This document shows, piece by piece, positions 22,846 to 31,634 of a DNA stretch of 64,000 nt. This stretch comes from Eubacteriales bacterium (lineage in GTDB: Bacteria; Bacillota; Clostridia; Oscillospirales; QAKW01): the NCBI GenBank assembly GCA_045541555.1, contig JAZQJH010000036.1, forward strand, positions 44,650 to 108,649, written 5' to 3'. Position 1 is the first letter of the stretch. Every line of letters begins with the position of its first letter. The notes under the pieces are model-generated. The model did not search any database. It was given only the letters and a program-made list of their open reading frames with translations, and had not been told where the DNA came from. The translations under genes were made by a program, and so were the position numbers.

Positions 22846-22882
22846 AATATCCCCTATGGTATCTACCATAGGGGATATTTTT
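22846..22882. terminator. Bidirectional terminator closing the import operon
   Basis: aatatcccctatggt-atct-accataggggatattttt. Confidence 0.9.
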
Positions 22883-22887
22883 CGTTT

Positions 22888-23052
22888 TTAGAAATTCATA
22901 TGCTCCACAAAATTACCGACTGCTTTAATGGCATTTCCGGCGGTTTTAGTCATGCACTTTTTGGGTTTACTTTTAAGCGCAAGCATGCTGGCAGTTGCTC
23001 CTAAGGCTGCGCCGGCAATCATGGAAAACATCATTGTTTTTGTTTGCTTCAT
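22888..23052 (-). CDS. Unannotated 54-aa membrane-anchored protein
   Basis: RBS AAAGGGA; MKQTKTMMFSMIAGAALGATASMLALKSKPKKCMTKTAGNAIKAVGNFVEHMNF; ends at the terminator. Confidence 0.75.
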   Translation of the reverse strand: MKQTKTMMFSMIAGAALGATASMLALKSKPKKCMTKTAGNAIKAVGNFVEHMNF

Positions 23053-23106: not shown

Positions 23107-23155
23107 TTTACATTTGACACGGAATATAGTATAATAAATCTGTATAATTGTCGAA
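23107..23155 (+). promoter_or_regulatory. SigA promoter with a downstream Spo0A-box-like heptamer
   Basis: TTTACA(23107)-17 bp-TATAAT(23130); TGTCGAA at 23149-23155. Confidence 0.5.
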
Positions 23156-23199: not shown

Positions 23200-25413
23200 A
23201 TGCGGATTTATCAGATGGAAAAAGAAGAAGTGGCCGCTTTGCTGAATACCGATCTTGAACGTGGAAAGGAACTTCATCCGATTCGTGAAAAAAAGAATGG
23301 ATGGAGAAATGTGACTTCTTTTTTTAGCGGTCTTTTTTCGTTGCTTAAAGGAAAGTTTTATTATGTAAACATCATATTGATGGTCAGCTATTTTATAGCA
23401 GGTGTTTTTTCGTGGCTGAACCACTCTTGGGGGTTGCTTTATCTGACGATAGCGGCCGTCGTATTGACTTTTTTGCTTTATATTTTAGAGGGGATACTAC
23501 TTCATATTTATAAAAAGAAATATCATGACCGGAGTATTTGTGATTCCCAAAAAGTACAAGCTCTCCGTTTTGGAAATACGGTTGAGCTTGAACCGGATGA
23601 ATTAGTGGTTGGTGATCTGATTTGTTTGCAGACGGGTACACTTCTTTATTGTGATGCGCGTATTATTGAGAGTAATGATCTTTTCTCTGAGGAAAAGACG
23701 GTCTTTGGAACGACAATTCCGCTTGAAAAGAATGCATCTTCCATTCAAGAAGAAAACATTCCTCCTGAAAAACAAAGAAATATGCTTTGGAAAGGAAGTT
23801 ATATTTCGAGCGGTAAAGGACTTGCGATTGTAACGGCGATTGGGGCTGAATGCTATATTGCTAAAACCGGCGGTCGTAAAAGCCGTAAGCAACGTTCTTT
23901 CTTCTATAATAGACAAAACAATATCGGGCATATTGCATCTTACGTTTATATTATTATCTGCGCATTGTGTTTGCTTATTGCAGCATTATTTACCAAGAAG
24001 TTTGTCGAGGCGTTCCTGCTGATGGGTGTGCTTTCTTCGTTGATGCTTCTTAATCCGGTTTCTTGCTTGATGGAGTGGACCTACTATCGCATTGCGGCGC
24101 GGTTTTATCAGCAAGGTATCTTAATTCGGAATATCGAAGCGTTTGATGGGATGAATAAAGAAAAGGAACTTTATTTTGACGCTGATAAACTGATTACGAA
24201 TCAGTTGCGCTATTCTCATACGATTGATTTCCAAGGAACAGAAAAAAGTACGGTTTCTTATTTTTCTCTTTGCATGGGCTCCGGTTATTTTGCGAATGAA
24301 TTGGGAAGTGTCCTTTCGAAATATGATCTTACTTATGAAAAGTTGGATCGTAGCTTTCCGGTGTTTCGACGTGAAACGGATGAGGAGGGGAATGTTTTTA
24401 GCCTCTTTTCCAAGTCGGGAAGCTCGGTGGTTGTGGCCGCCGGCTATTGGAAGAAAATGCTTCCTTTAGTTCAGGAATTGGGGGAGGAATTATTAGAGCA
24501 AATTCACGAGCTTGAACTTCATGGAAAAATGGTTTATATCATGGCCAGTGATTCCATGGATTTCATTCCCAATAAATTGGAGTTTTCTCGCTTTATGGGG
24601 AATATGGTTCTTTCATCGTTGGTGGTGTTTGACTTGCCCGTTAATCAAGAAGTTCTTGCGATGATTGGTCAGTTGCGCCATTCATCTATGAAGGTTCATT
24701 TGATTTCGGATTATTCCGAAGCACTTGGAAAAACCTTGGCAAGATCCTATGATATGGATGGTTTCTTGTCTCTGCCGCCCAATCGACCCTGCTACTCGAT
24801 TCCGCATTCGGACGGCAATTCTTTAGTGGTATATAAAGATCATTCTTCACCCATCGACCGGGATCAGGCGATGGTTGTGTTAGAAAACGGAGTTGCTGCT
24901 CAAAACTTGGTTTACAGAGTGAAATGTATGTTCTGCGGAATCAGAAGATGCCTAAATTTTCTTGCTATTTCTGGTGCTTTTTTGATCTTTACAGTAATGG
25001 CTCTTTTTTTGGCGAATGTGTCGATGGAAAAAATATTATTCCCTGTTTTGGCGTTGACTCCGGTATTGATTTGTCCTTGTTATTATTTAATTGAGAGCGT
25101 TAGAAACTGTAATCAATACAGACGGAGTTTAATATTGGGGATGTTTTGCGGTTCCGCCGGATTTGTCGCTGCGTTGATCGGATGCGATGCGGCGATTTTA
25201 GCGTTTGGTTTATCGACAGTTCTGCTTTCCGGATATTTCTTGTTTTCCGGTGCAAAGCATCGTGCTGTTACAAAAGGGAGCATCATCATTCTGGCGGTTG
25301 CTTTCGTAGTGGCGATCTTGCCGTTTGTCTTTATCGGTGTAAACTGGTTACCGGCGATTTTATTGTCCCTTTTTCCTGCACTGGGGGCTTTTGTTTTGGA
25401 TCTATTTTATTGA
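23200..25413 (+). CDS. Degenerate P-type (P2-like) ATPase homolog, catalytic motifs lost
   Basis: Actuator-domain similarity (DELVVGDLICL, DARIIES, NMLWKGSYISSGKGLAIVTAIG); TGES reads FGTT, DKTGT reads DADKL, no GDGxND. Confidence 0.8.
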   Translation: MRIYQMEKEEVAALLNTDLERGKELHPIREKKNGWRNVTSFFSGLFSLLKGKFYYVNIILMVSYFIAGVFSWLNHSWGLLYLTIAAVVLTFLLYILEGILLHIYKKKYHDRSICDSQKVQALRFGNTVELEPDELVVGDLICLQTGTLLYCDARIIESNDLFSEEKTVFGTTIPLEKNASSIQEENIPPEKQRNMLWKGSYISSGKGLAIVTAIGAECYIAKTGGRKSRKQRSFFYNRQNNIGHIASYVYIIICALCLLIAALFTKKFVEAFLLMGVLSSLMLLNPVSCLMEWTYYRIAARFYQQGILIRNIEAFDGMNKEKELYFDADKLITNQLRYSHTIDFQGTEKSTVSYFSLCMGSGYFANELGSVLSKYDLTYEKLDRSFPVFRRETDEEGNVFSLFSKSGSSVVVAAGYWKKMLPLVQELGEELLEQIHELELHGKMVYIMASDSMDFIPNKLEFSRFMGNMVLSSLVVFDLPVNQEVLAMIGQLRHSSMKVHLISDYSEALGKTLARSYDMDGFLSLPPNRPCYSIPHSDGNSLVVYKDHSSPIDRDQAMVVLENGVAAQNLVYRVKCMFCGIRRCLNFLAISGAFLIFTVMALFLANVSMEKILFPVLALTPVLICPCYYLIESVRNCNQYRRSLILGMFCGSAGFVAALIGCDAAILAFGLSTVLLSGYFLFSGAKHRAVTKGSIIILAVAFVVAILPFVFIGVNWLPAILLSLFPALGAFVLDLFY

Positions 25414-25428
25414 TCAAGGAGACTATGA

Positions 25429-26178
25429 ATGGAATTTGAAGAGAAAAAACAGTCTGAATTAGTTTTTGGTAAAAATAATGTAACGGAATTGCTGCTTTCC
25501 GATGCAACGGTTGAACGTATTTATCTTGCCGGCGATCCTAAAAGTAATAATTTTAAAAAGATCATTGCTCTTTGCAAAACCAAAGGGGTTCCTATTGTTC
25601 ATACCGACACCAATGCAATCAATCGCAAGGCGCCGAAGGTCAATCATCAAGGGGTGATTGCATATTGTGCCGAAAAGGAGTATGCAACTGTTGAGGATAT
25701 TCTAAAGGCTGCAGAAGAACGGGGAGAGGCTCCGTTTATTATTGTGGCCGATGAAATTGTTGATCCGCATAATTTGGGCGCAATTCTGCGTTCTGCAGAC
25801 GCATTTGGTGCGCATGGCGTGATTATTTCCAAGCGGCGTGCAGTCGGTTTGACTCCTTCGGTTGCAAAAGCCAGTGGTGGTGCAATCCACTATATTCCGG
25901 TGGCCAGAGTTGCAAATTTGGTGCAGACTATCGAGGATTTGAAAAAGAAGAATATATGGGTGTACGGATGCGATATGGCCGGAGAAAATGTCTATTATGA
26001 GCAGGATTATTCCGGTGGAGTTGCATTAATCGTGGGAAGCGAAGAATCGGGTATATCTCGTTTGCTGCGCGAACAATGCGACTTTTTTGTCAGAATTCCA
26101 ATGAAAGGGAAGATTTCCTGCTTGAACGCTTCCGTCGCAGCATCTGTTATTATGCAGGAGATTGCTAAAAATCGTTAA
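25429..26178 (+). CDS. rlmB: 23S rRNA (Gm2251) methyltransferase, TrmH/SpoU family
   Basis: NHQGVIA, DPHNLGAILRSA, VGSEESG, CLNASVAA. Confidence 0.92.
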   Translation: MEFEEKKQSELVFGKNNVTELLLSDATVERIYLAGDPKSNNFKKIIALCKTKGVPIVHTDTNAINRKAPKVNHQGVIAYCAEKEYATVEDILKAAEERGEAPFIIVADEIVDPHNLGAILRSADAFGAHGVIISKRRAVGLTPSVAKASGGAIHYIPVARVANLVQTIEDLKKKNIWVYGCDMAGENVYYEQDYSGGVALIVGSEESGISRLLREQCDFFVRIPMKGKISCLNASVAASVIMQEIAKNR

Positions 26179-26195
26179 TTGAGTGAGGATAAAGA

Positions 26196-28229
26196 ATGAG
26201 TTTTGAACCGAAAGACTCAAAATCTACATTAGATGAGATCATGGCAAAAATCAATGAGATTCAGCAGGAAAGCCAAGCAGAGGAATCTACAAAGCGGTTG
26301 ATCCATGACCATGATAAAGTTTTAAATGAGGCGGAGGATGTCCCTTTTCCGATTGATGAAGAACTTTTTGATTTGATCAAAGAGGAAAGAACGGTTTCTG
26401 CCGAACCCGAAAAGGAAAAATCGGTCATACGACGTTTATTGGACGGGGAAGAGGACGAGAACGAAGAACACGAAGAGCCTGTGACTCGTTCTATCATTTT
26501 CGATGATGTGCCGGAGAATATCGCGGATATTGAAGATTTTGAGGCAGAAGAGGATCGCGATGAAATCTATCGCGATTTGAAAAACACCGTAGGAAAAATG
26601 GCAGTGAAGATGATTTTTATCTTCTTTATCTGCTTGGTGTCCATTTATCTTTTTGTTGCCGGATTTCATCCTGCTTTATTTGGTGGGAATGTTGACACCC
26701 CTTGGTTTGATGCGGCTTTCTTGGCGGTGGACGCACTTTGCATCTTTGTTTCTTTTGGTATTTTTACGCAAGGTCTCGGTCATTTGCTTCGTTTACGTGC
26801 AGATACTGATACGTTATTGGCGTTGCTTTCGATTTCGTTGGTGATCGTGCGTGTGATTGCACTGATTAAACCCGATCTTTTTGATTATGAGCTTAGTTTT
26901 GAGCCAATGCTGACGATCGGACTTCTTTATAATGTGATTGCCAAGAAGAAGATTGCAACTAACATTAAAAAGAACTTTAAATTTATTTCAACTTCGGGAG
27001 ATAAGCTGACAGCAACGGCTCCTCCTTCTTGCGAAGTGAATAATGATGTGATATTGGAGACCGGGGAGGGCGGAGAGATCGTCTATGCACATTCCACCGG
27101 ATTGGTTTCAAAGTTTATTGACCATAGTTACAGTGATTTTGAGTGGGATTCCAAGCTTCAGCATTTTTTCTTTGTAATCTTAGTCGCTGTGGTGGCTGGC
27201 ACTATTGTAGTATCGCAATTGACCGGTTGGGGGGCAGCTCTTTTATTTCCGTCTGCGGCAATATCTATCACGACCCCGTTTTTTTCGCGTTATTTCTATG
27301 CGAATTCAATGGCAAAGATCGGCAAAAAAACACGTAAAAATGGCGGAATTCTAACTTCTGCAAATTCAGCAAAAGAACTCTTTAATTCTGATTTAGTCGT
27401 ACTTTCCGAAGAAGATTTCCTGGGAAACGAAGCGGTCTTACTGCAGGGAGTGAAGGCGATGGGAGACGTTCAGATTGATGATTTGATCACCAATATCGCG
27501 GCGCTGTTTAATGCAGTGGGGACTCCTCTGAAGCCTCTTTTTTTAAAGATGATCGATCAAAACAGTGTTTCTTTGCCCCGCGTGGATGATATTTATTACC
27601 ACGAAGGGATGGGATACACCTGTTTGATCCACAGTAAAATGTTCTTGGTCGGGAATGATCGTCTGATGGAAAAGTTTAATATCGACTTTCCAAAAGCTTT
27701 GAAAGAGTTGAAGCTGAAGGACTGCAGATTTCCTGTATATGTGGCCTATCAATGTTTACCTGCGGGTATTTTTATTGCCAGTTATGAAAGGAATAAGCAT
27801 ACCGAAGCGATGGTGCACCTGGCTGAAGAGGGGCAGATCGGCATTGGAATTGTATCGAAAGACTTTCTCTTTGACCGTGATCTCTTGAAACGTCTTTATC
27901 CGGGTGTTCAATCCGAATTATTCCATTTCTTGTCTGCAAAAACCGGCTCTGCATGCTCGCCGCTTTTAGAGAGAGTTTCTAAGTCTCCGGATTTGATTGG
28001 TTCCGTTACCGGTGCCAGAGGAATATTCTCTTGCTTGAATGGCGCAAAAAAATTGGTTTCTGCTTTAAAAATCAATACAATTATTCGTGTTTTATACCCA
28101 ATTTTAGCGTTGGCGTTGATCTTTTTTATCGCTTTGGCCGGTTATTCTGCCAATACAGCTTTGCAAATTTTGGCGTTTCAGGCAATTTGGTTTATCCCGG
28201 TTGCTGTGATTTGTACTTTTTGCAAATAA
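26196..28229 (+). CDS. Degenerate P1B-like ATPase homolog with acidic N-terminal domain
   Basis: DTDTLLAL, FPSAAISITTP (CPC position), SDLVVLSEED (DKTGT position), EGMG..FLVGNDRLM. Confidence 0.65.
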   Translation: MSFEPKDSKSTLDEIMAKINEIQQESQAEESTKRLIHDHDKVLNEAEDVPFPIDEELFDLIKEERTVSAEPEKEKSVIRRLLDGEEDENEEHEEPVTRSIIFDDVPENIADIEDFEAEEDRDEIYRDLKNTVGKMAVKMIFIFFICLVSIYLFVAGFHPALFGGNVDTPWFDAAFLAVDALCIFVSFGIFTQGLGHLLRLRADTDTLLALLSISLVIVRVIALIKPDLFDYELSFEPMLTIGLLYNVIAKKKIATNIKKNFKFISTSGDKLTATAPPSCEVNNDVILETGEGGEIVYAHSTGLVSKFIDHSYSDFEWDSKLQHFFFVILVAVVAGTIVVSQLTGWGAALLFPSAAISITTPFFSRYFYANSMAKIGKKTRKNGGILTSANSAKELFNSDLVVLSEEDFLGNEAVLLQGVKAMGDVQIDDLITNIAALFNAVGTPLKPLFLKMIDQNSVSLPRVDDIYYHEGMGYTCLIHSKMFLVGNDRLMEKFNIDFPKALKELKLKDCRFPVYVAYQCLPAGIFIASYERNKHTEAMVHLAEEGQIGIGIVSKDFLFDRDLLKRLYPGVQSELFHFLSAKTGSACSPLLERVSKSPDLIGSVTGARGIFSCLNGAKKLVSALKINTIIRVLYPILALALIFFIALAGYSANTALQILAFQAIWFIPVAVICTFCK

Positions 28230-28241
28230 TTATTTAAATGC

Positions 28242-28270
28242 TTGCATTTTGTTTGGTGATATTGTATAAT
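28242..28270 (+). promoter_or_regulatory. SigA promoter of the EF-G paralog
   Basis: TTGCAT-17 bp-TATAAT. Confidence 0.75.
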
Positions 28271-28325
28271 GTATTCATGAATTATTTTTAGCGTTCCATC
28301 CGGAGTCGCGAAAGGAGATCTAATC

Positions 28326-30377
28326 ATGAGCACACCTGCAAAAGACATTCGTAACGTATGTTTGATCGGTCATAAAGGGAATGGTAAAACTACCCTGGCC
28401 GAGTCTATGCTTTATTTCAGTAAAATAATCGAACGGTTAGGTAAGACCGAGCAAGGTAATACGATTCTCGATTTTGACGCTGAAGAAATTAAGCGTAAAT
28501 GTTCGATTTCTCTTTCGATGGCTTCTTTTGAATATAAGAAGACCAAGATTAATTTGATTGATGTTCCCGGCAACTATGATTATGAAGGCGATCAGCTTTC
28601 CGGTCTGGAAGTGGCCGATCTTGCATTGATTGTTCTTAATGCAAAGAATACCGTCTCTGTCGGTACCGAAAAAGCTTGGCAGAAAACCGAGAAGAAGATG
28701 ATGCCACGTGCATTCTTTATTGCAGGCTTGGACGATGAAAATTCCGACTTTTATAGTATTGTTGAGCAGTTGCACGCTAAATTTGGTGCAAATCAGATTC
28801 TGCCGATTACCTTACCGATCATTGAGGATAATAAACTGGTCGGTACGGTAAACGTTATTACCAATGAAGGTTATCGTTTTGGTCAGGGTGTTGTGCCTGT
28901 TCCCGCTAATATGCAGGATAAGGTTAATACTTATTATCATTCCGCACTGGAGGCAATTGCCGAGACGGATGATGCTTTGATGGATAAATTCTTTGCAGAT
29001 GAAGAGTTTACCAAGGATGAGTTGGGCGAGGGCCTGAAAAAAGCAGTCGCAATGCGCTTGATCTATCCCATCTTCTGCGGTGTGCCGACGGAAGTTCGCG
29101 GTATTTATCAGTTGCTGGAGGCGATTGTGGATTATTTCCCCACTCCTCTTTGCAATGGTGCTACCAAGGCTCTTAAAAATGGAGATGAGGTTGATCTGGA
29201 GTGTAATCCTGACGGGCCCATGGTCCTGCGCGTATTCAAAACTGTAGCCGACCCGTTTGTGGGAAAGATGTCTTTCTTCAAGGTGTACTCCGGTACGGTT
29301 AAAAAGGATAAATCGTATCTGAATACAAAACGCGGCGAAAGCGAAAAGATTGCTCATGTTTATACGCCGTTTGGTAAAAAGCAAAATGAAGTTGATGAAT
29401 TGCAAGCCGGCGATATTGGCGTATTTACTAAACTTTCCATTACCGGTACCTCAGACGTGCTTTGTGATAAAGATTTTCCGGTTACAATTCCGGCGATCGA
29501 ATTCCCGAAAGCAAATTATAGTAAGGCGGTCATCTCCAAGGCAAAAGGCGATGAAGAAAAGATTGCTCAAGGTATTAACCGCATGATCGAAGAGGATCCT
29601 ACCCTTAAAATGAAGGTGGATGCTGAAACCAAGCAGATGGTTCTCTCGGGTTTCGGCGATCTTCAATTGGATGTCGTTGTATCGAAGCTTGCTTCTAAGT
29701 TTGGTGTTAATGTGGAATTGGGAGAAGTGAAAGTACCTTATCGCGAAGCAATCCGCAAGAAAGTTAAGGTGGAAGGAAAGCATAAGAAGCAGTCCGGCGG
29801 TCATGGTCAGTATGGTCATGTGTGGATTGAGTTTGAGCCGCTGTATGAAGGTGAATTTGAATTTGCCGAGTCGGTATTTGGCGGTGCTGTGCCGAAGAAC
29901 TATTTCCCGGCAGTTGAAAAGGGGTTGCGTGAGTCTATTACAAAGGGTGTTTTGGCCGGTTATCCTGTGACCGGTTTGAAGGCGACCTTGCTGGATGGTT
30001 CATATCACCCGGTTGATTCTTCTGAAATGGCGTTTAAGACTGCGGCATCGATCGCCTTTAAAGAGGGTATGAAGGCTGCCAATCCCGTCCTTTTGGAGCC
30101 GGTTGGTTCTCTTACCGTTCATGTATCGGATGCTTTGATGGGCGATATTATTGGAGATATTAATAAGCGTCGTGGTCAAATTCTTTCGATGGATGCTTCT
30201 GAAACCAGAGGCTATAAGATCGTTACCGCTACAGTTCCGATGAGCGAAATGAATTCTTATGCAATGGATCTTAGAAGCATGACCCATGCACGTGCTACCT
30301 TTAACCTTGAGTTTTTGGAGTATCGTGAGGCTCCGGCGAACATCACGCAAAAGGTTATCGCTGAAAAAGCAGAATAA
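28326..30377 (+). CDS. fusA2: Elongation factor G paralog (EF-G2-like)
   Basis: GHKGNGKT, EEDPT, PYRE, KKQSGGHGQYG, GSYHPVDSSEMAF; not in the str operon. Confidence 0.9.
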   Translation: MSTPAKDIRNVCLIGHKGNGKTTLAESMLYFSKIIERLGKTEQGNTILDFDAEEIKRKCSISLSMASFEYKKTKINLIDVPGNYDYEGDQLSGLEVADLALIVLNAKNTVSVGTEKAWQKTEKKMMPRAFFIAGLDDENSDFYSIVEQLHAKFGANQILPITLPIIEDNKLVGTVNVITNEGYRFGQGVVPVPANMQDKVNTYYHSALEAIAETDDALMDKFFADEEFTKDELGEGLKKAVAMRLIYPIFCGVPTEVRGIYQLLEAIVDYFPTPLCNGATKALKNGDEVDLECNPDGPMVLRVFKTVADPFVGKMSFFKVYSGTVKKDKSYLNTKRGESEKIAHVYTPFGKKQNEVDELQAGDIGVFTKLSITGTSDVLCDKDFPVTIPAIEFPKANYSKAVISKAKGDEEKIAQGINRMIEEDPTLKMKVDAETKQMVLSGFGDLQLDVVVSKLASKFGVNVELGEVKVPYREAIRKKVKVEGKHKKQSGGHGQYGHVWIEFEPLYEGEFEFAESVFGGAVPKNYFPAVEKGLRESITKGVLAGYPVTGLKATLLDGSYHPVDSSEMAFKTAASIAFKEGMKAANPVLLEPVGSLTVHVSDALMGDIIGDINKRRGQILSMDASETRGYKIVTATVPMSEMNSYAMDLRSMTHARATFNLEFLEYREAPANITQKVIAEKAE

Positions 30378-30431
30378 ACTGAAAAAACAGACCATATAAA
30401 TTATTGAAATCAATTCGGAAGAGGGTTGCTC

Positions 30432-30896
30432 ATGTTTATATGGTCTGTTAAATTAAATCGCAATTTAATATGGGGCTTTTGCGCTGCACTTTGCCTTTCT
30501 ATTGGTGGAATTGCGGTCTTTACTCCGAAGAATTCTACCGACGTATTGAAAAGTGCGGTGAATACTGCCGGCAAAACGACTGAACAGCAGATTGCGTTTT
30601 TGAATTCGTTTGGTTATGAGGTGGAAGCAGAGCCTGCCTTGATTGAAGAAGTGATTATTCCGACGGAATTTGACGAAAAATATACGGCATATAATAACTA
30701 TCAGAAATTAAGCGGCTTTGATCTTACTAAACATAAGGGCGACCGTGTTAAAAAATACACTTATAAAGTGACCAACTATCCCAATCAGAAGAGTGGTGTC
30801 AATGCCAATATTCTGGTTTATAAAGGAAAGGTTATCGGTGGAGATGTTTCTGCCGCAACTTTGGATGGCTTTGTTCACGGCTTTGTGAAAGAATAG
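30432..30896 (+). CDS. DUF4830-like protein
   Basis: N-terminal TM helix; IIPTEFD..Y..YN..QK.SGFDL..HKG..VKKYTY; KVIGGDV. Confidence 0.75.
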   Translation: MFIWSVKLNRNLIWGFCAALCLSIGGIAVFTPKNSTDVLKSAVNTAGKTTEQQIAFLNSFGYEVEAEPALIEEVIIPTEFDEKYTAYNNYQKLSGFDLTKHKGDRVKKYTYKVTNYPNQKSGVNANILVYKGKVIGGDVSAATLDGFVHGFVKE

Positions 30897-30900
30897 GGAT

Positions 30901-30928
30901 GGCTGCGCCGGATACGGCGCAGCCTTTT
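30901..30928 (+). terminator. Terminator
   Basis: ggctgcgccg-gata-cggcgcagcctttt. Confidence 0.8.
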
Positions 30929-30935
30929 GAAGGAA

Positions 30936-31634
30936 ATGAGACTGGACAAATTTTTATGTGATACTTTGAATATGACACGTACCGAGGCTAAGAAGGCAAT
31001 TTCAAAAGGACGTGTTACCCTGGGAGGCATTCCTGCTAAAAGCGGAAGTTTGCAGGTGGGAGAAGGGGAGGTCTGCCTCGATCAAGTTCCGGTGGTCTAC
31101 CAACGATATTTTTATATCATGCTCCATAAGCCGGAAGGGTATGTTTGTGCAAATCGTGACAGTAAAAGTAAAACGGTTTTTGATTTGTTACCTGCTGAAT
31201 ATCAAAAAAAGGATCTCTTTGTTTGCGGTCGCTTAGATAAAGATACGACGGGTCTGGTATTGATCACCAATCACGGAGACTTGGCGCATCGCTTACTTGC
31301 ACCAAAAAAAGAAATCTTTAAGGAATACCTCGTTACCCTGCGTGATAGGGTGACGGATGATGATATTTGTCGGCTGAAGAACGGAATTGTTTTAAAGGAT
31401 GGCTTGGTATGTAAACCGGCATATTTTCAGCAATACGAGGATCGCTATGGACTTTTGAGGATCTCGGAAGGAAAGTATCATCAAATCAAGCGAATGTTTG
31501 CGTCGCTTGGAAATGAAGTGGTTGGCTTACATCGAAAAGCGATACACGGTCTTTCGCTGGATCCCAATTTGCCGGTGGGGGAATGCCGTTATTTAACAGA
31601 GGAGGAGATTATTTCTCTGAAATCGGTGGAATAA
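30936..31634 (+). CDS. RsuA-family pseudouridine synthase
   Basis: MRLDKFL S4 domain, GRLDKDTTGL, ISEGKYHQIKRM. Confidence 0.9.
   Translation: MRLDKFLCDTLNMTRTEAKKAISKGRVTLGGIPAKSGSLQVGEGEVCLDQVPVVYQRYFYIMLHKPEGYVCANRDSKSKTVFDLLPAEYQKKDLFVCGRLDKDTTGLVLITNHGDLAHRLLAPKKEIFKEYLVTLRDRVTDDDICRLKNGIVLKDGLVCKPAYFQQYEDRYGLLRISEGKYHQIKRMFASLGNEVVGLHRKAIHGLSLDPNLPVGECRYLTEEEIISLKSVE

What the first reader, a model, noticed from the sequence alone, without database searches (positions are those of the whole stretch)
23200..28229. Two different dead P-type ATPases bracket rlmB in one apparent operon
Seen: same strand, gaps of 15 and 17 bp, no internal terminator, and a new promoter only before fusA2. 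The two genes appear to derive from different P-type subfamilies. Inferred: independent loss of catalysis plus co-location hints at a cooperating pseudo-enzyme pair of unknown function, a candidate undescribed system. Alternatively the adjacency is lineage-specific shuffling.
Basis: inference. Interest (0 to 1): 0.65.

Follow-up and report, generated by a model that had tools for sequence, protein, structure and literature searches.

The report
Two dead ion pumps flanking rlmB
Two intact membrane proteins that descend from different ATP-driven ion pumps but can no longer pump sit on either side of the rRNA methylase gene rlmB; the downstream one belongs to an unnamed family kept directly after rlmB by almost every bacterium of a whole order of gut Clostridia, while the upstream one is a recent local addition, so they did not arise as a pair.

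Summary
A (23200-25413, 737 aa), rlmB (25429-26178) and B (26196-28229, 677 aa) lie on one strand with 15 and 17 bp gaps. Each gene has its own ribosome-binding site. One conserved promoter precedes A and a second precedes fusA2.

A has the fold of a P2-type calcium or magnesium pump with 10 membrane helices. B has the fold of a P1B copper pump with 8. Both lack the phosphorylated DKTGT aspartate, the TGES motif and the ion-binding residues. Both are under purifying selection (dN/dS about 0.10 and 0.06).

The "cooperating pair" reading is only partly supported.
- B belongs to a large unnamed family: 646 clusters at E<=1e-30, and about 148 of 151 sampled genomes of the order.
- That family sits directly after rlmB in 139 of the 140 genomes where both lie on one contig and strand.
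- It occurs there without A.
- A exists only in one clade (24 species-level loci). It evolves about twice as fast as B.
- Sister genera carry intermediates at the same position, including a nearly canonical pump.

One hint favours interaction. B ends in CxxCK only in the A-bearing clade, and A carries KCxxCG.

Function is unknown. A non-pumping role of B linked to RlmB is my best inference.

The parts
22846..22879 (+). Strong intrinsic terminator that ends the upstream ABC-permease operon
   Evidence: 15-bp stem with 6 G-C pairs followed by a T-run.
22888..23052 (-). 54-aa small hydrophobic ORF transcribed divergently from A
   Evidence: Read from the sequence. Its ribosome-binding site and start codon (CATCCCTTTCT on the + strand) are conserved in related loci.
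23107..23135 (+). Sigma-70-type promoter of the A-rlmB-B unit (TTTACA-17-TATAAT)
   Evidence: Matches 11 of 12 consensus positions. Both hexamers are conserved in 19 related loci.
23200..25413 (+). A: 737-aa non-catalytic derivative of a P2A/P3-type P-type ATPase
   Evidence: - Pfam E1-E2_ATPase 58.5 bits, and no other P-type domain.
- PDB profile hits: MgtA 8e-19, LMCA1 1e-17.
- AlphaFold2 pLDDT 87, 10 membrane helices; Foldseek top hit LMCA1 9e-26.
- Motifs lost.
- dN/dS 0.096.
25429..26178 (+). rlmB, 23S rRNA Gm2251 2'-O-methyltransferase
   Evidence: TIGR00186 243 bits against a 160 cut-off; SpoU_methylase and SpoU_sub_bind domains.
26196..28229 (+). B: 677-aa non-catalytic derivative of a P1B-type ATPase with an acidic disordered N-terminal tail (residues 1-116)
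   Evidence: - No Pfam model.
- Broad family profile against Legionella pneumophila CopA (LpCopA, PDB 3rfu): 9.8e-25.
- AlphaFold2 pLDDT 79, 8 membrane helices; Foldseek top hit LpCopA (PDB 4bbj) 4.8e-16.
- Motifs lost.
- dN/dS 0.056.
28242..28270 (+). Separate promoter for fusA2 (TTGCAT-17-TATAAT)
   Evidence: Nearly invariant across 19 related loci.
28291..28309 (+). Small hairpin in the fusA2 5' leader, just before the ribosome-binding site
   Evidence: Its sequence differs between loci while both arms stay complementary. This was seen by eye in the alignment and not tested statistically.
28326..30377 (+). EF-G paralogue (fusA2-like), often found downstream of B in the order
   Evidence: NF009381 869 bits. 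It follows B in the 19 A-clade loci that extend that far and in 7 of 24 order-wide loci.
30426..30896 (+). DUF4830 membrane-anchored protein that travels with fusA2
   Evidence: PF16112 105 bits; synteny.
30927..31634 (+). S4-domain pseudouridine synthase (RsuA/RluB-like)
   Evidence: PF00849 and PF01479.

Best explanation
SHOWN. A, rlmB and B are arranged as one polycistronic unit behind a conserved sigma-70-type promoter.

B is the local member of a very large, unnamed family.
- It is restricted to the order of the window's genome and is nearly universal there. The order is probably Oscillospirales, judged from the only named members.
- Its members are P1B (copper-pump) ATPase derivatives. 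They have lost the phosphorylated Asp, the A-domain TGES loop (most of the A domain is gone), the CPC metal site, the HP motif and GDGxND.
- They keep the 8-helix membrane fold, the P/N head and the two nucleotide-pocket glycine motifs (GxG and GN). These glycines are the only invariant residues of the family.
- They carry an acidic disordered N-terminal tail of 100-700 residues ending in a conserved EIxDYE-like motif.
- The family sits directly after rlmB in about 95% of sampled genomes, while all other flanking genes vary.

A is much younger.
- It belongs to a second, fast-evolving P2A-type pump lineage that lies before rlmB only in this GTDB family.
- Sister genera show the decay in steps. 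First the ion site and the TGES glutamate are lost while DKTGT is kept (genome G094). Then everything is lost (G048, G130 and the window's clade).
- Both proteins are under purifying selection, so both do something other than pumping.

INFERRED.
- B most likely works as a non-enzymatic membrane partner of RlmB. It could tether or regulate the methyltransferase, or a late step of 50S maturation, through its tail or head, and may still sense adenine nucleotide. I give about 45% to a functional link with RlmB.
- A is an accessory recruited later into this operon. It may dock onto B in this clade through matching CxxC motifs. I give that about 15-20%.
For: Anatomy:
- ORFs, gaps and ribosome-binding sites.
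- Promoters conserved by footprint.
- No real internal terminator.

B identity:
- PDB profile hits only to P1B pumps.
- AlphaFold2 model and Foldseek, LpCopA 4.8e-16.
- Motif mapping onto LpCopA.
- Invariant G473 and G486.

B distribution:
- 646 clusters at E<=1e-30.
- 151 of 151 order genomes hit, about 148 strongly.
- All 15 of the weakest hits I fetched lack DKTG, CPx, TGE and GDGxND, whereas true CopA scores at most 173 bits.
- 11 of 11 same-order genomes and 0 of 289 other-order genomes in the class sample.
- rlmB directly upstream in 139 of the 140 genomes with both on one contig and strand.
- Flanks otherwise variable.

A identity and history:
- Pfam, NCBIfam and PDB hits and fold.
- 24 loci, all with A-rlmB-B wherever the contig reaches that far.
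- Genes at A's position in sister genera.
- Graded motif loss.
- TIGR01522 score falls 635, 463, 55, 40 bits.
- Tree separates this lineage from the housekeeping P2 paralogue.

Selection: dN/dS 0.096 for A and 0.056 for B, against 0.02 for rlmB and fusA2.

CxxC motifs appear together.
Against:
- Strict gene order can be kept for co-expression alone, so the RlmB link is inference.
- The conserved glycines of the N domain could be purely structural.
- Orthology of the genes at A's position rests on synteny and on a tree where long branches meet.
- In G094 the gene at A's position is separated from rlmB by a gene on the opposite strand.
- The joint appearance of the CxxC motifs is a single evolutionary event.
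- In the class-level search only two candidates per genome were scored, so absence outside the order is a floor estimate.
Confidence: 0.6

Rival explanations
1. One reading: A and B are a cooperating pseudo-enzyme pair, a heteromeric membrane complex that works as one undescribed system.
For: - A-rlmB-B is kept in all 24 species-level loci of the clade wherever the contig extends far enough.
- Both proteins are under purifying selection.
- B ends in C-x-x-C-K in 20 of 20 complete B proteins of the A-bearing clade and in none of about 50 B proteins elsewhere. A carries K-C-M-F-C-G in 22 of 23.
- Both motifs are predicted to lie on the cytoplasmic side close to the membrane.
Against: - B exists without A in more than 140 sampled genomes.
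- A evolves much faster than B (32-80% against 49-89% identity over the same loci).
- The sister genus with a dead 818-aa protein at A's position has no CxxC in B.
- In G094 the gene at A's position is almost canonical and is not in the rlmB operon.
- The CxxC correlation is one event.
Confidence: 0.18
2. B's position after rlmB is only a frozen operon arrangement. B has a membrane job unrelated to ribosomes, for example a nucleotide- or ion-sensing scaffold, a passive channel, or a regulator of the genome's active P-type pumps. A likewise would regulate its active P2 paralogue.
For: - The genome has four canonical P-type ATPases that could be regulated.
- Pseudoenzymes often regulate active paralogues (review PMC10211241, listed, title and abstract only).
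- The retained GxG and GN motifs fit nucleotide sensing.
- Nothing in B resembles an RNA-binding domain.
Against: - Adjacency of 139 in 140 across 30 families and 96 genera, with every other neighbour changing, is far tighter than usual for unrelated genes.
- The active pumps lie on other contigs.
Confidence: 0.3
3. A and/or B are decaying pseudogenes, or artefacts of sequencing or assembly.
For: All catalytic motifs are gone. A evolves fast.
Against: - Intact reading frames of constant length in 24 species for A and in about 148 genomes for B.
- dN/dS of 0.06-0.10.
- Confident full-length fold predictions.
- Many invariant residues.
Confidence: 0.02
4. The proteins still pump, using non-canonical catalytic residues that have moved elsewhere in the fold.
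For: Some B members have an Asp at the aligned phosphorylation position (G108, G048, G008). D556, the Asp of the TGD motif, is nearly invariant.
Against: - The Asp column is not conserved. Within the window's clade it is mostly Ser, with Lys, Gln, Arg, Asn and Ala variants; in more distant B members it is Asp, Arg, Lys, Cys or Ser.
- K, T, G and T of DKTGT, the TGES motif, GDGxND, and the CPC or PEGL ion sites are all missing.
- Most of B's A domain is deleted.
Confidence: 0.03

Closest known systems
P1B-type heavy-metal P-type ATPases (CopA of Legionella pneumophila, PDB 3RFU/4BBJ; ATP7B; HMA4; ZntA)
   Same: B shares the 8-helix membrane topology, the P and N domains, the M4 proline, the GxG and GN motifs of the N domain and the Asp of TGD. 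The family profile scores 9.8e-25 against 3rfu and Foldseek gives 4.8e-16 against 4bbj.
   Different: B has no DKTGT, no CPC, no TGES (the A domain is cut to about 40 residues), no HP motif and no GDGxND. It has no metal-binding HMA domain and carries an acidic disordered tail instead. It is always encoded after rlmB.
P2A/P3B pumps (Listeria LMCA1, PDB 6ZHH; SERCA; SPCA; E. coli MgtA, PDB 8UY7)
   Same: A shares the 10-helix topology and a recognisable actuator domain (Pfam PF00122). The overall A/P/N arrangement matches: Foldseek 9e-26, and TM-score up to 0.61 normalised to A's length.
   Different: - TGES reads FGTT and PEGL reads NPVS.
- DKTGT reads D/E/N/S-A-D-K-L.
- KGAPE, DPPR, TGD, GDGVND and the M5, M6 and M8 ion ligands are lost.
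- The P/N head is about 150 residues shorter.
- A scores 40 bits on TIGR01522, against 635 for the genome's real pump.
Membrane pseudoenzymes reused as scaffolds or regulators (iRhom pseudoproteases; the non-catalytic HAD-family protein PcrP/PA2803, PMC12632274, title and abstract only)
   Same: The concept is the same: an enzyme fold kept under selection after losing its chemistry. PcrP belongs to the HAD superfamily, to which the P domain also belongs.
   Different: These are different folds or soluble proteins. I found no P-type ATPase example in the papers searched, and the 2023 review of the superfamily (PMC10654040) does not mention inactive members.

Membership tests
Functional P-type ATPase (any subfamily), tested on protein A | Phosphorylated Asp in DKTGT | tested here: not met
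   The aligned site reads LYFDADKLIT. The Asp column varies (D, E, N, S) across 32 family members.
Functional P-type ATPase (any subfamily), tested on protein A | TGES dephosphorylation loop in the A domain | tested here: not met
   FGTT or FGST in the family.
P2A Ca2+-ATPase, tested on protein A | Ion ligands: Glu of the M4 PEGL motif, and the Asn, Glu and Asp of M5 and M6 | tested here: not met
   NPVS replaces PEGL, and the N..E and N..D positions of M5 and M6 are not kept. TIGR01522 scores 39.7 bits against a 798 cut-off.
P-type ATPase fold, tested on protein A | 10 membrane helices plus A, P and N domains; Pfam E1-E2_ATPase | tested here: met
   PF00122 58.5 bits, above the 28.1 cut-off. 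AlphaFold2 pLDDT 87 with 10 long helices. Foldseek LMCA1 9e-26.
P1B heavy-metal ATPase, tested on protein B | DKTGT, the CPx metal site in M4, TGE(S/P), the HP motif and GDGxND | tested here: not met
   - The DKTGT stretch reads SEEDF in the window, and the Asp column is variable in the family.
- CPC aligns to F-P-S (family consensus v-P-f).
- SEHPL aligns to GTPL or GGPL.
- GDGIND aligns to TGARGI.

P1B heavy-metal ATPase, tested on protein B | N-terminal HMA metal-binding domain(s) | tested here: not met
   No Pfam hit. Residues 1-116 are acidic and predicted disordered.
P1B-type fold, tested on protein B | 8 membrane helices (MA, MB, M1-M6) with a P/N head; GxG and GN motifs of the N domain | tested here: met
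   AlphaFold2 model. Foldseek places P1B pumps first. G473 and G486 are the only invariant residues of the broad alignment and align to the GKG and IGN motifs of LpCopA.
Unnamed rlmB-linked dead-P1B family, tested on protein B | Encoded directly after rlmB on the same strand | tested here: met
   17 bp gap in the window. True of 139 of the 140 order genomes where both lie on one contig and strand.
Unnamed rlmB-linked dead-P1B family, tested on protein B | Acidic disordered N-terminal tail ending in an EIxDYE-like motif just before the first membrane helix | tested here: met
   The window has DIEDFEAEEDRDEIYRDLK. The motif appears in the consensus of the broad alignment.
RlmB (23S rRNA Gm2251 methyltransferase), tested on the middle gene | Score above the curated equivalog cut-off; SpoU methylase plus substrate-binding domain | tested here: met
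   TIGR00186 243.4 bits against 160.15; PF00588 and PF08032. The methylation activity itself cannot be tested here.

The most novel reading that the evidence does not exclude
In this clade the two dead pumps form a heteromeric membrane complex. It would be held together by an intermolecular four-cysteine metal clasp, using A's KCxxCG on the cytoplasmic stalk of M5 and B's C-terminal CxxCK. Together with RlmB, the complex would couple a late step of large-subunit ribosome maturation, or its nucleotide-dependent control, to the membrane. More broadly, the B family would be the first recognised clade of non-catalytic P-type ATPases, with a ribosome-related role.
Probability: 0.12. Interest if true: 0.8.

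Novelty: new variant of a known kind. Interest (0 to 1): 0.6.

Why it matters
P-type ATPases are among the best-studied membrane enzymes. Neither the 2023 review of the superfamily nor my other paper searches describe a non-catalytic member.

- B shows that a whole order of abundant gut bacteria keeps a pump-shaped protein that cannot pump, and keeps it glued to a ribosomal RNA methylase gene. This points to an unknown link between the membrane and ribosome biogenesis, or to a new use of the pump scaffold.
- Cultured members exist (Caproicibacterium, Youxingia), so the link can be tested.
- The A lineage offers a natural series from working pump to dead pump. The order of losses (ion site and dephosphorylation loop first, phosphorylation site later) can be read from it.
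- Annotation is also affected. NCBI calls these genes 'hypothetical protein' and IMG calls them 'cation transport ATPase'.

Tried and rejected
- Direct relation of A to B: hhalign gave probability 0.6%, so none.
- The narrow genus-level profile of B (alignment A2) found B in only 35 of 151 order genomes and hit true CopA in other orders at about 1e-13. I replaced it with a broad profile (A4) and calibrated that against true CopA.
- My ORF-and-BLAST neighbourhood tally (19 of 24 loci) missed several rlmB genes. I replaced it with coordinate comparison of two whole-genome searches.
- Pseudogene reading: rejected by dN/dS and intact frames.
- rlmB-B gene fusions: the long open frames around some rlmB matches extend upstream, not into B (by arithmetic). 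No fusion was seen.
- Other conserved neighbours that might hint at function: apart from fusA2, DUF4830 and the pseudouridine synthase in some families, the flanks vary (shikimate kinase, VanY, MreB, MetRS, TatD, GNAT, RNase H).
- Literature: four full-text searches and one review found no description of non-catalytic P-type ATPases or of this family.
- Complex prediction for A+B or RlmB+B could not be run with the single-chain tool.


Full report
**1. What is there.**

The window holds four same-strand ORFs:
- A, 23200-25413, 737 aa
- rlmB, 25429-26178, 249 aa
- B, 26196-28229, 677 aa
- an EF-G paralogue, 28326-30377

The gaps between A, rlmB and B are 15 and 17 bp. AAGGAG and GAGGA ribosome-binding sites precede the rlmB and B start codons.

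A strong terminator at 22846-22879 closes the upstream ABC-permease operon. The hairpins inside A, rlmB and B are weak and no more frequent than in shuffled sequence.

A promoter TTTACA-17-TATAAT at 23107-23135 is conserved in 19 related loci. The 96-bp spacer before fusA2 holds a second, nearly invariant promoter, TTGCAT-17-TATAAT at 28242-28270.

**2. What the two proteins are.**

*Protein A.*
- Its only Pfam match is the E1-E2 actuator domain.
- The family profile hits MgtA, LMCA1, SERCA and the Na,K-ATPase in the PDB, from 8e-19 down.
- The AlphaFold2 model (pLDDT 87) has 10 long helices and an A/P/N head. Foldseek ranks LMCA1 (9e-26), MgtA, SPCA and the Na,K-ATPase first.

*Protein B.*
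- It has no Pfam or NCBIfam family.
- Its profile hits only P1B pumps, up to 9.8e-25 against Legionella CopA with the broad profile.
- Its model (pLDDT 79; residues 1-116 disordered) has 8 helices. Foldseek ranks CopA, ATP7B and ZntA first, followed by the P1A pump KdpB, from 4.8e-16.

A and B show no direct profile-profile relation.

*Catalytic motifs.*
- In A, TGES reads FGTT and PEGL reads NPVS. The DKTGT site reads D/E/N/S-A-D-K-L, with a variable first residue. KGAPE, DPPR, TGD, GDGVND and the ion ligands of M5, M6 and M8 are gone.
- In B, CPC aligns to F-P-S, DKTGT to S-E-E-D-F, SEHPL to G-T-P-L and GDGIND to T-G-A-R-G-I. The A domain is reduced to about 40 residues.

The genome has four normal P-type ATPases elsewhere.

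**3. They are not pseudogenes.**

Against the closest relative, dN/dS is 0.096 for A and 0.056 for B. It is about 0.02 for rlmB and fusA2. Reading frames of constant length persist across 24 species for A and about 148 genomes for B.

**4. B is old, universal in its order, and tied to rlmB.**

- An exhaustive profile search found 646 clusters (50% identity) at E<=1e-30. Lengths run from 700 to 1389 aa because the N-terminal tail varies.
- A broad profile hit 151 of 151 sampled genomes of the order, spanning 30 families and 96 genera.
- True CopA scores at most 173 bits against that profile. All 15 of the weakest hits I fetched (196-332 bits) lack DKTG, CPx, TGE and GDGxND.
- Only three genomes have doubtful scores, and two of those are less than 90% complete.
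- In a class-wide sample, 11 of 11 same-order genomes and 0 of 289 genomes of other orders reached 1e-45. This is a floor estimate, because only two candidates per genome were scored.
- I combined B's coordinates with those of rlmB (TIGR00186). In 140 genomes both lie on one contig and strand. In 139 of these, rlmB lies directly upstream, and the apparent gap of 13-1544 bp is B's own variable tail. In seven further genomes the two lie on different contigs, mostly at contig ends. One genome separates them by 28 kb.
- Other neighbours vary widely. An EF-G2, DUF4830 and pseudouridine-synthase block follows B in several families.
- The only named members are 'hypothetical protein' of Youxingia wuxianensis and Caproicibacterium lactatifermentans, both Oscillospiraceae. 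IMG calls the latter 'cation transport ATPase'.

Across the broad family only G473 and G486 are invariant. They align to the GxG and GN motifs of the CopA nucleotide pocket. This could mean that adenine-nucleotide binding is retained, or it could be purely structural.

**5. A is young and local.**

- True A-type proteins were found only in one clade: 36 full-length proteins in the protein search and 24 species-level MAG loci from animal guts.
- Every locus shows ABC permease | A - rlmB - B - fusA2 - DUF4830, as far as its contig extends.
- Over those loci A keeps 32-80% identity to the window. The figures are 49-89% for B, 76-96% for rlmB and 78-97% for fusA2.
- In the sister genus (G048, G074, G130) the gene before rlmB is a different dead form of 816-818 aa.
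- In a third genus (G094) it is an 872-aa protein with all five P2 Pfam domains and an intact DKTGT. It has TGKP for TGES, PASF for PEGL, TED for TGD and GDVVSD for GDGVND, and the M6 aspartate is lost. It is separated from rlmB by a gene on the opposite strand.
- Scores on the P2A model TIGR01522 fall from 635 bits (the genome's housekeeping pump) to 463, 55 and 40.
- A tree places these genes outside the tight clade of housekeeping P2 paralogues. Long branches meet there, so orthology rests mainly on position.
- Outside this GTDB family, the best A-like hits are ordinary pumps that are not near rlmB.

**6. Are they a pair?**

- At order level the answer is no. B does its job without A in more than 140 genomes.
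- Inside the clade they are always together.
- One observation speaks for contact. B ends in C-x-x-C-K in 20 of 20 complete proteins of the A-bearing clade and in none of about 50 elsewhere, including the sister genus. A carries K-C-M-F-C-G in 22 of 23.
- Both motifs are predicted to lie on the cytoplasmic side next to the membrane.
- This is a single evolutionary event, so it is a lead and not evidence.

**7. Most likely mechanism.**

*Shown:* neither protein can run the P-type cycle or bind the canonical ion, and both are maintained by selection.

*Inferred:*
- The near-absolute rlmB-B gene order, with short or overlapping junctions, is the kind of conservation usually seen for proteins that act together. 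This is general knowledge of gene-order conservation.
- I therefore favour B as a membrane-anchored, non-enzymatic partner of RlmB or of late 50S maturation (about 45%). It would act through its acidic tail and motif or its remodelled P/N head, possibly responding to nucleotide.
- The main rival is an unrelated membrane role with a frozen operon position (about 30%).
- A is best read as a later recruit, either an accessory to B or a regulator of the active P2 pump.

**8. Known or new.**

No Pfam or NCBIfam model covers B. Four full-text searches and the 2023 review of the superfamily gave no description of non-catalytic P-type ATPases.

Earlier notes of this scan describe the same B family, and one two-pump locus, in other genomes. 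I read them after my own analysis. They agree with it but are not independent evidence.

I class the finding as a new variant of a known kind: pseudoenzyme forms of P-type ATPases.

Noticed in passing
window 28230-28325: The B-fusA2 spacer is strongly conserved in 19 loci. It holds a near-invariant promoter (CTTGCATTTTGTTTGnnnATATTGTATAAT) followed by a leader hairpin whose sequence changes while both arms stay complementary. The hairpin lies just before the GAAAGGAGA ribosome-binding site.
   Followed up: partly
window 22888-23052 (- strand): A 54-aa hydrophobic ORF (MKQTKTMMFSMIAGAALGATASMLALKSKPKK...) is transcribed divergently from A. Its ribosome-binding site and start codon are conserved upstream of A in most related loci.
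   Followed up: partly
L007:4380-6998 (G094) and L062:628-3204 (G042): Two full-length P2A pumps of the same order have unusual motifs. G094 has TGKP, PASF, TED and GDVVSD. G042 has TGDS, DKTGI and GDSISD. They keep the phosphorylation Asp, so they may be pumps with a crippled dephosphorylation step or early stages of decay.
   Followed up: partly
window 28326-31634 and loci L007, L013, L017-L020, L026: An EF-G paralogue, a DUF4830 membrane protein and an S4-domain pseudouridine synthase form a block that follows rlmB-B in several families of the order. The wider neighbourhood therefore has a translation theme.
   Followed up: partly
own genome, contig C2:84360-97105: Three of the genome's four canonical P-type ATPases (745, 624 and 926 aa open frames) lie within 13 kb of each other on another contig.
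   Followed up: no
B family N-termini (L006, L007, L011, L012, L009, L016; window B residues 11-20): A second short motif, hydrophobic-x-x-D-[DE]-I-[LM]-x-[DE], recurs at or near the extreme N-terminus of B proteins. Examples are FDLDDIL, FSIDDILNEYG and LLDDILKEFG; the window has LDEIMAKI. It is sometimes duplicated.
   Followed up: no
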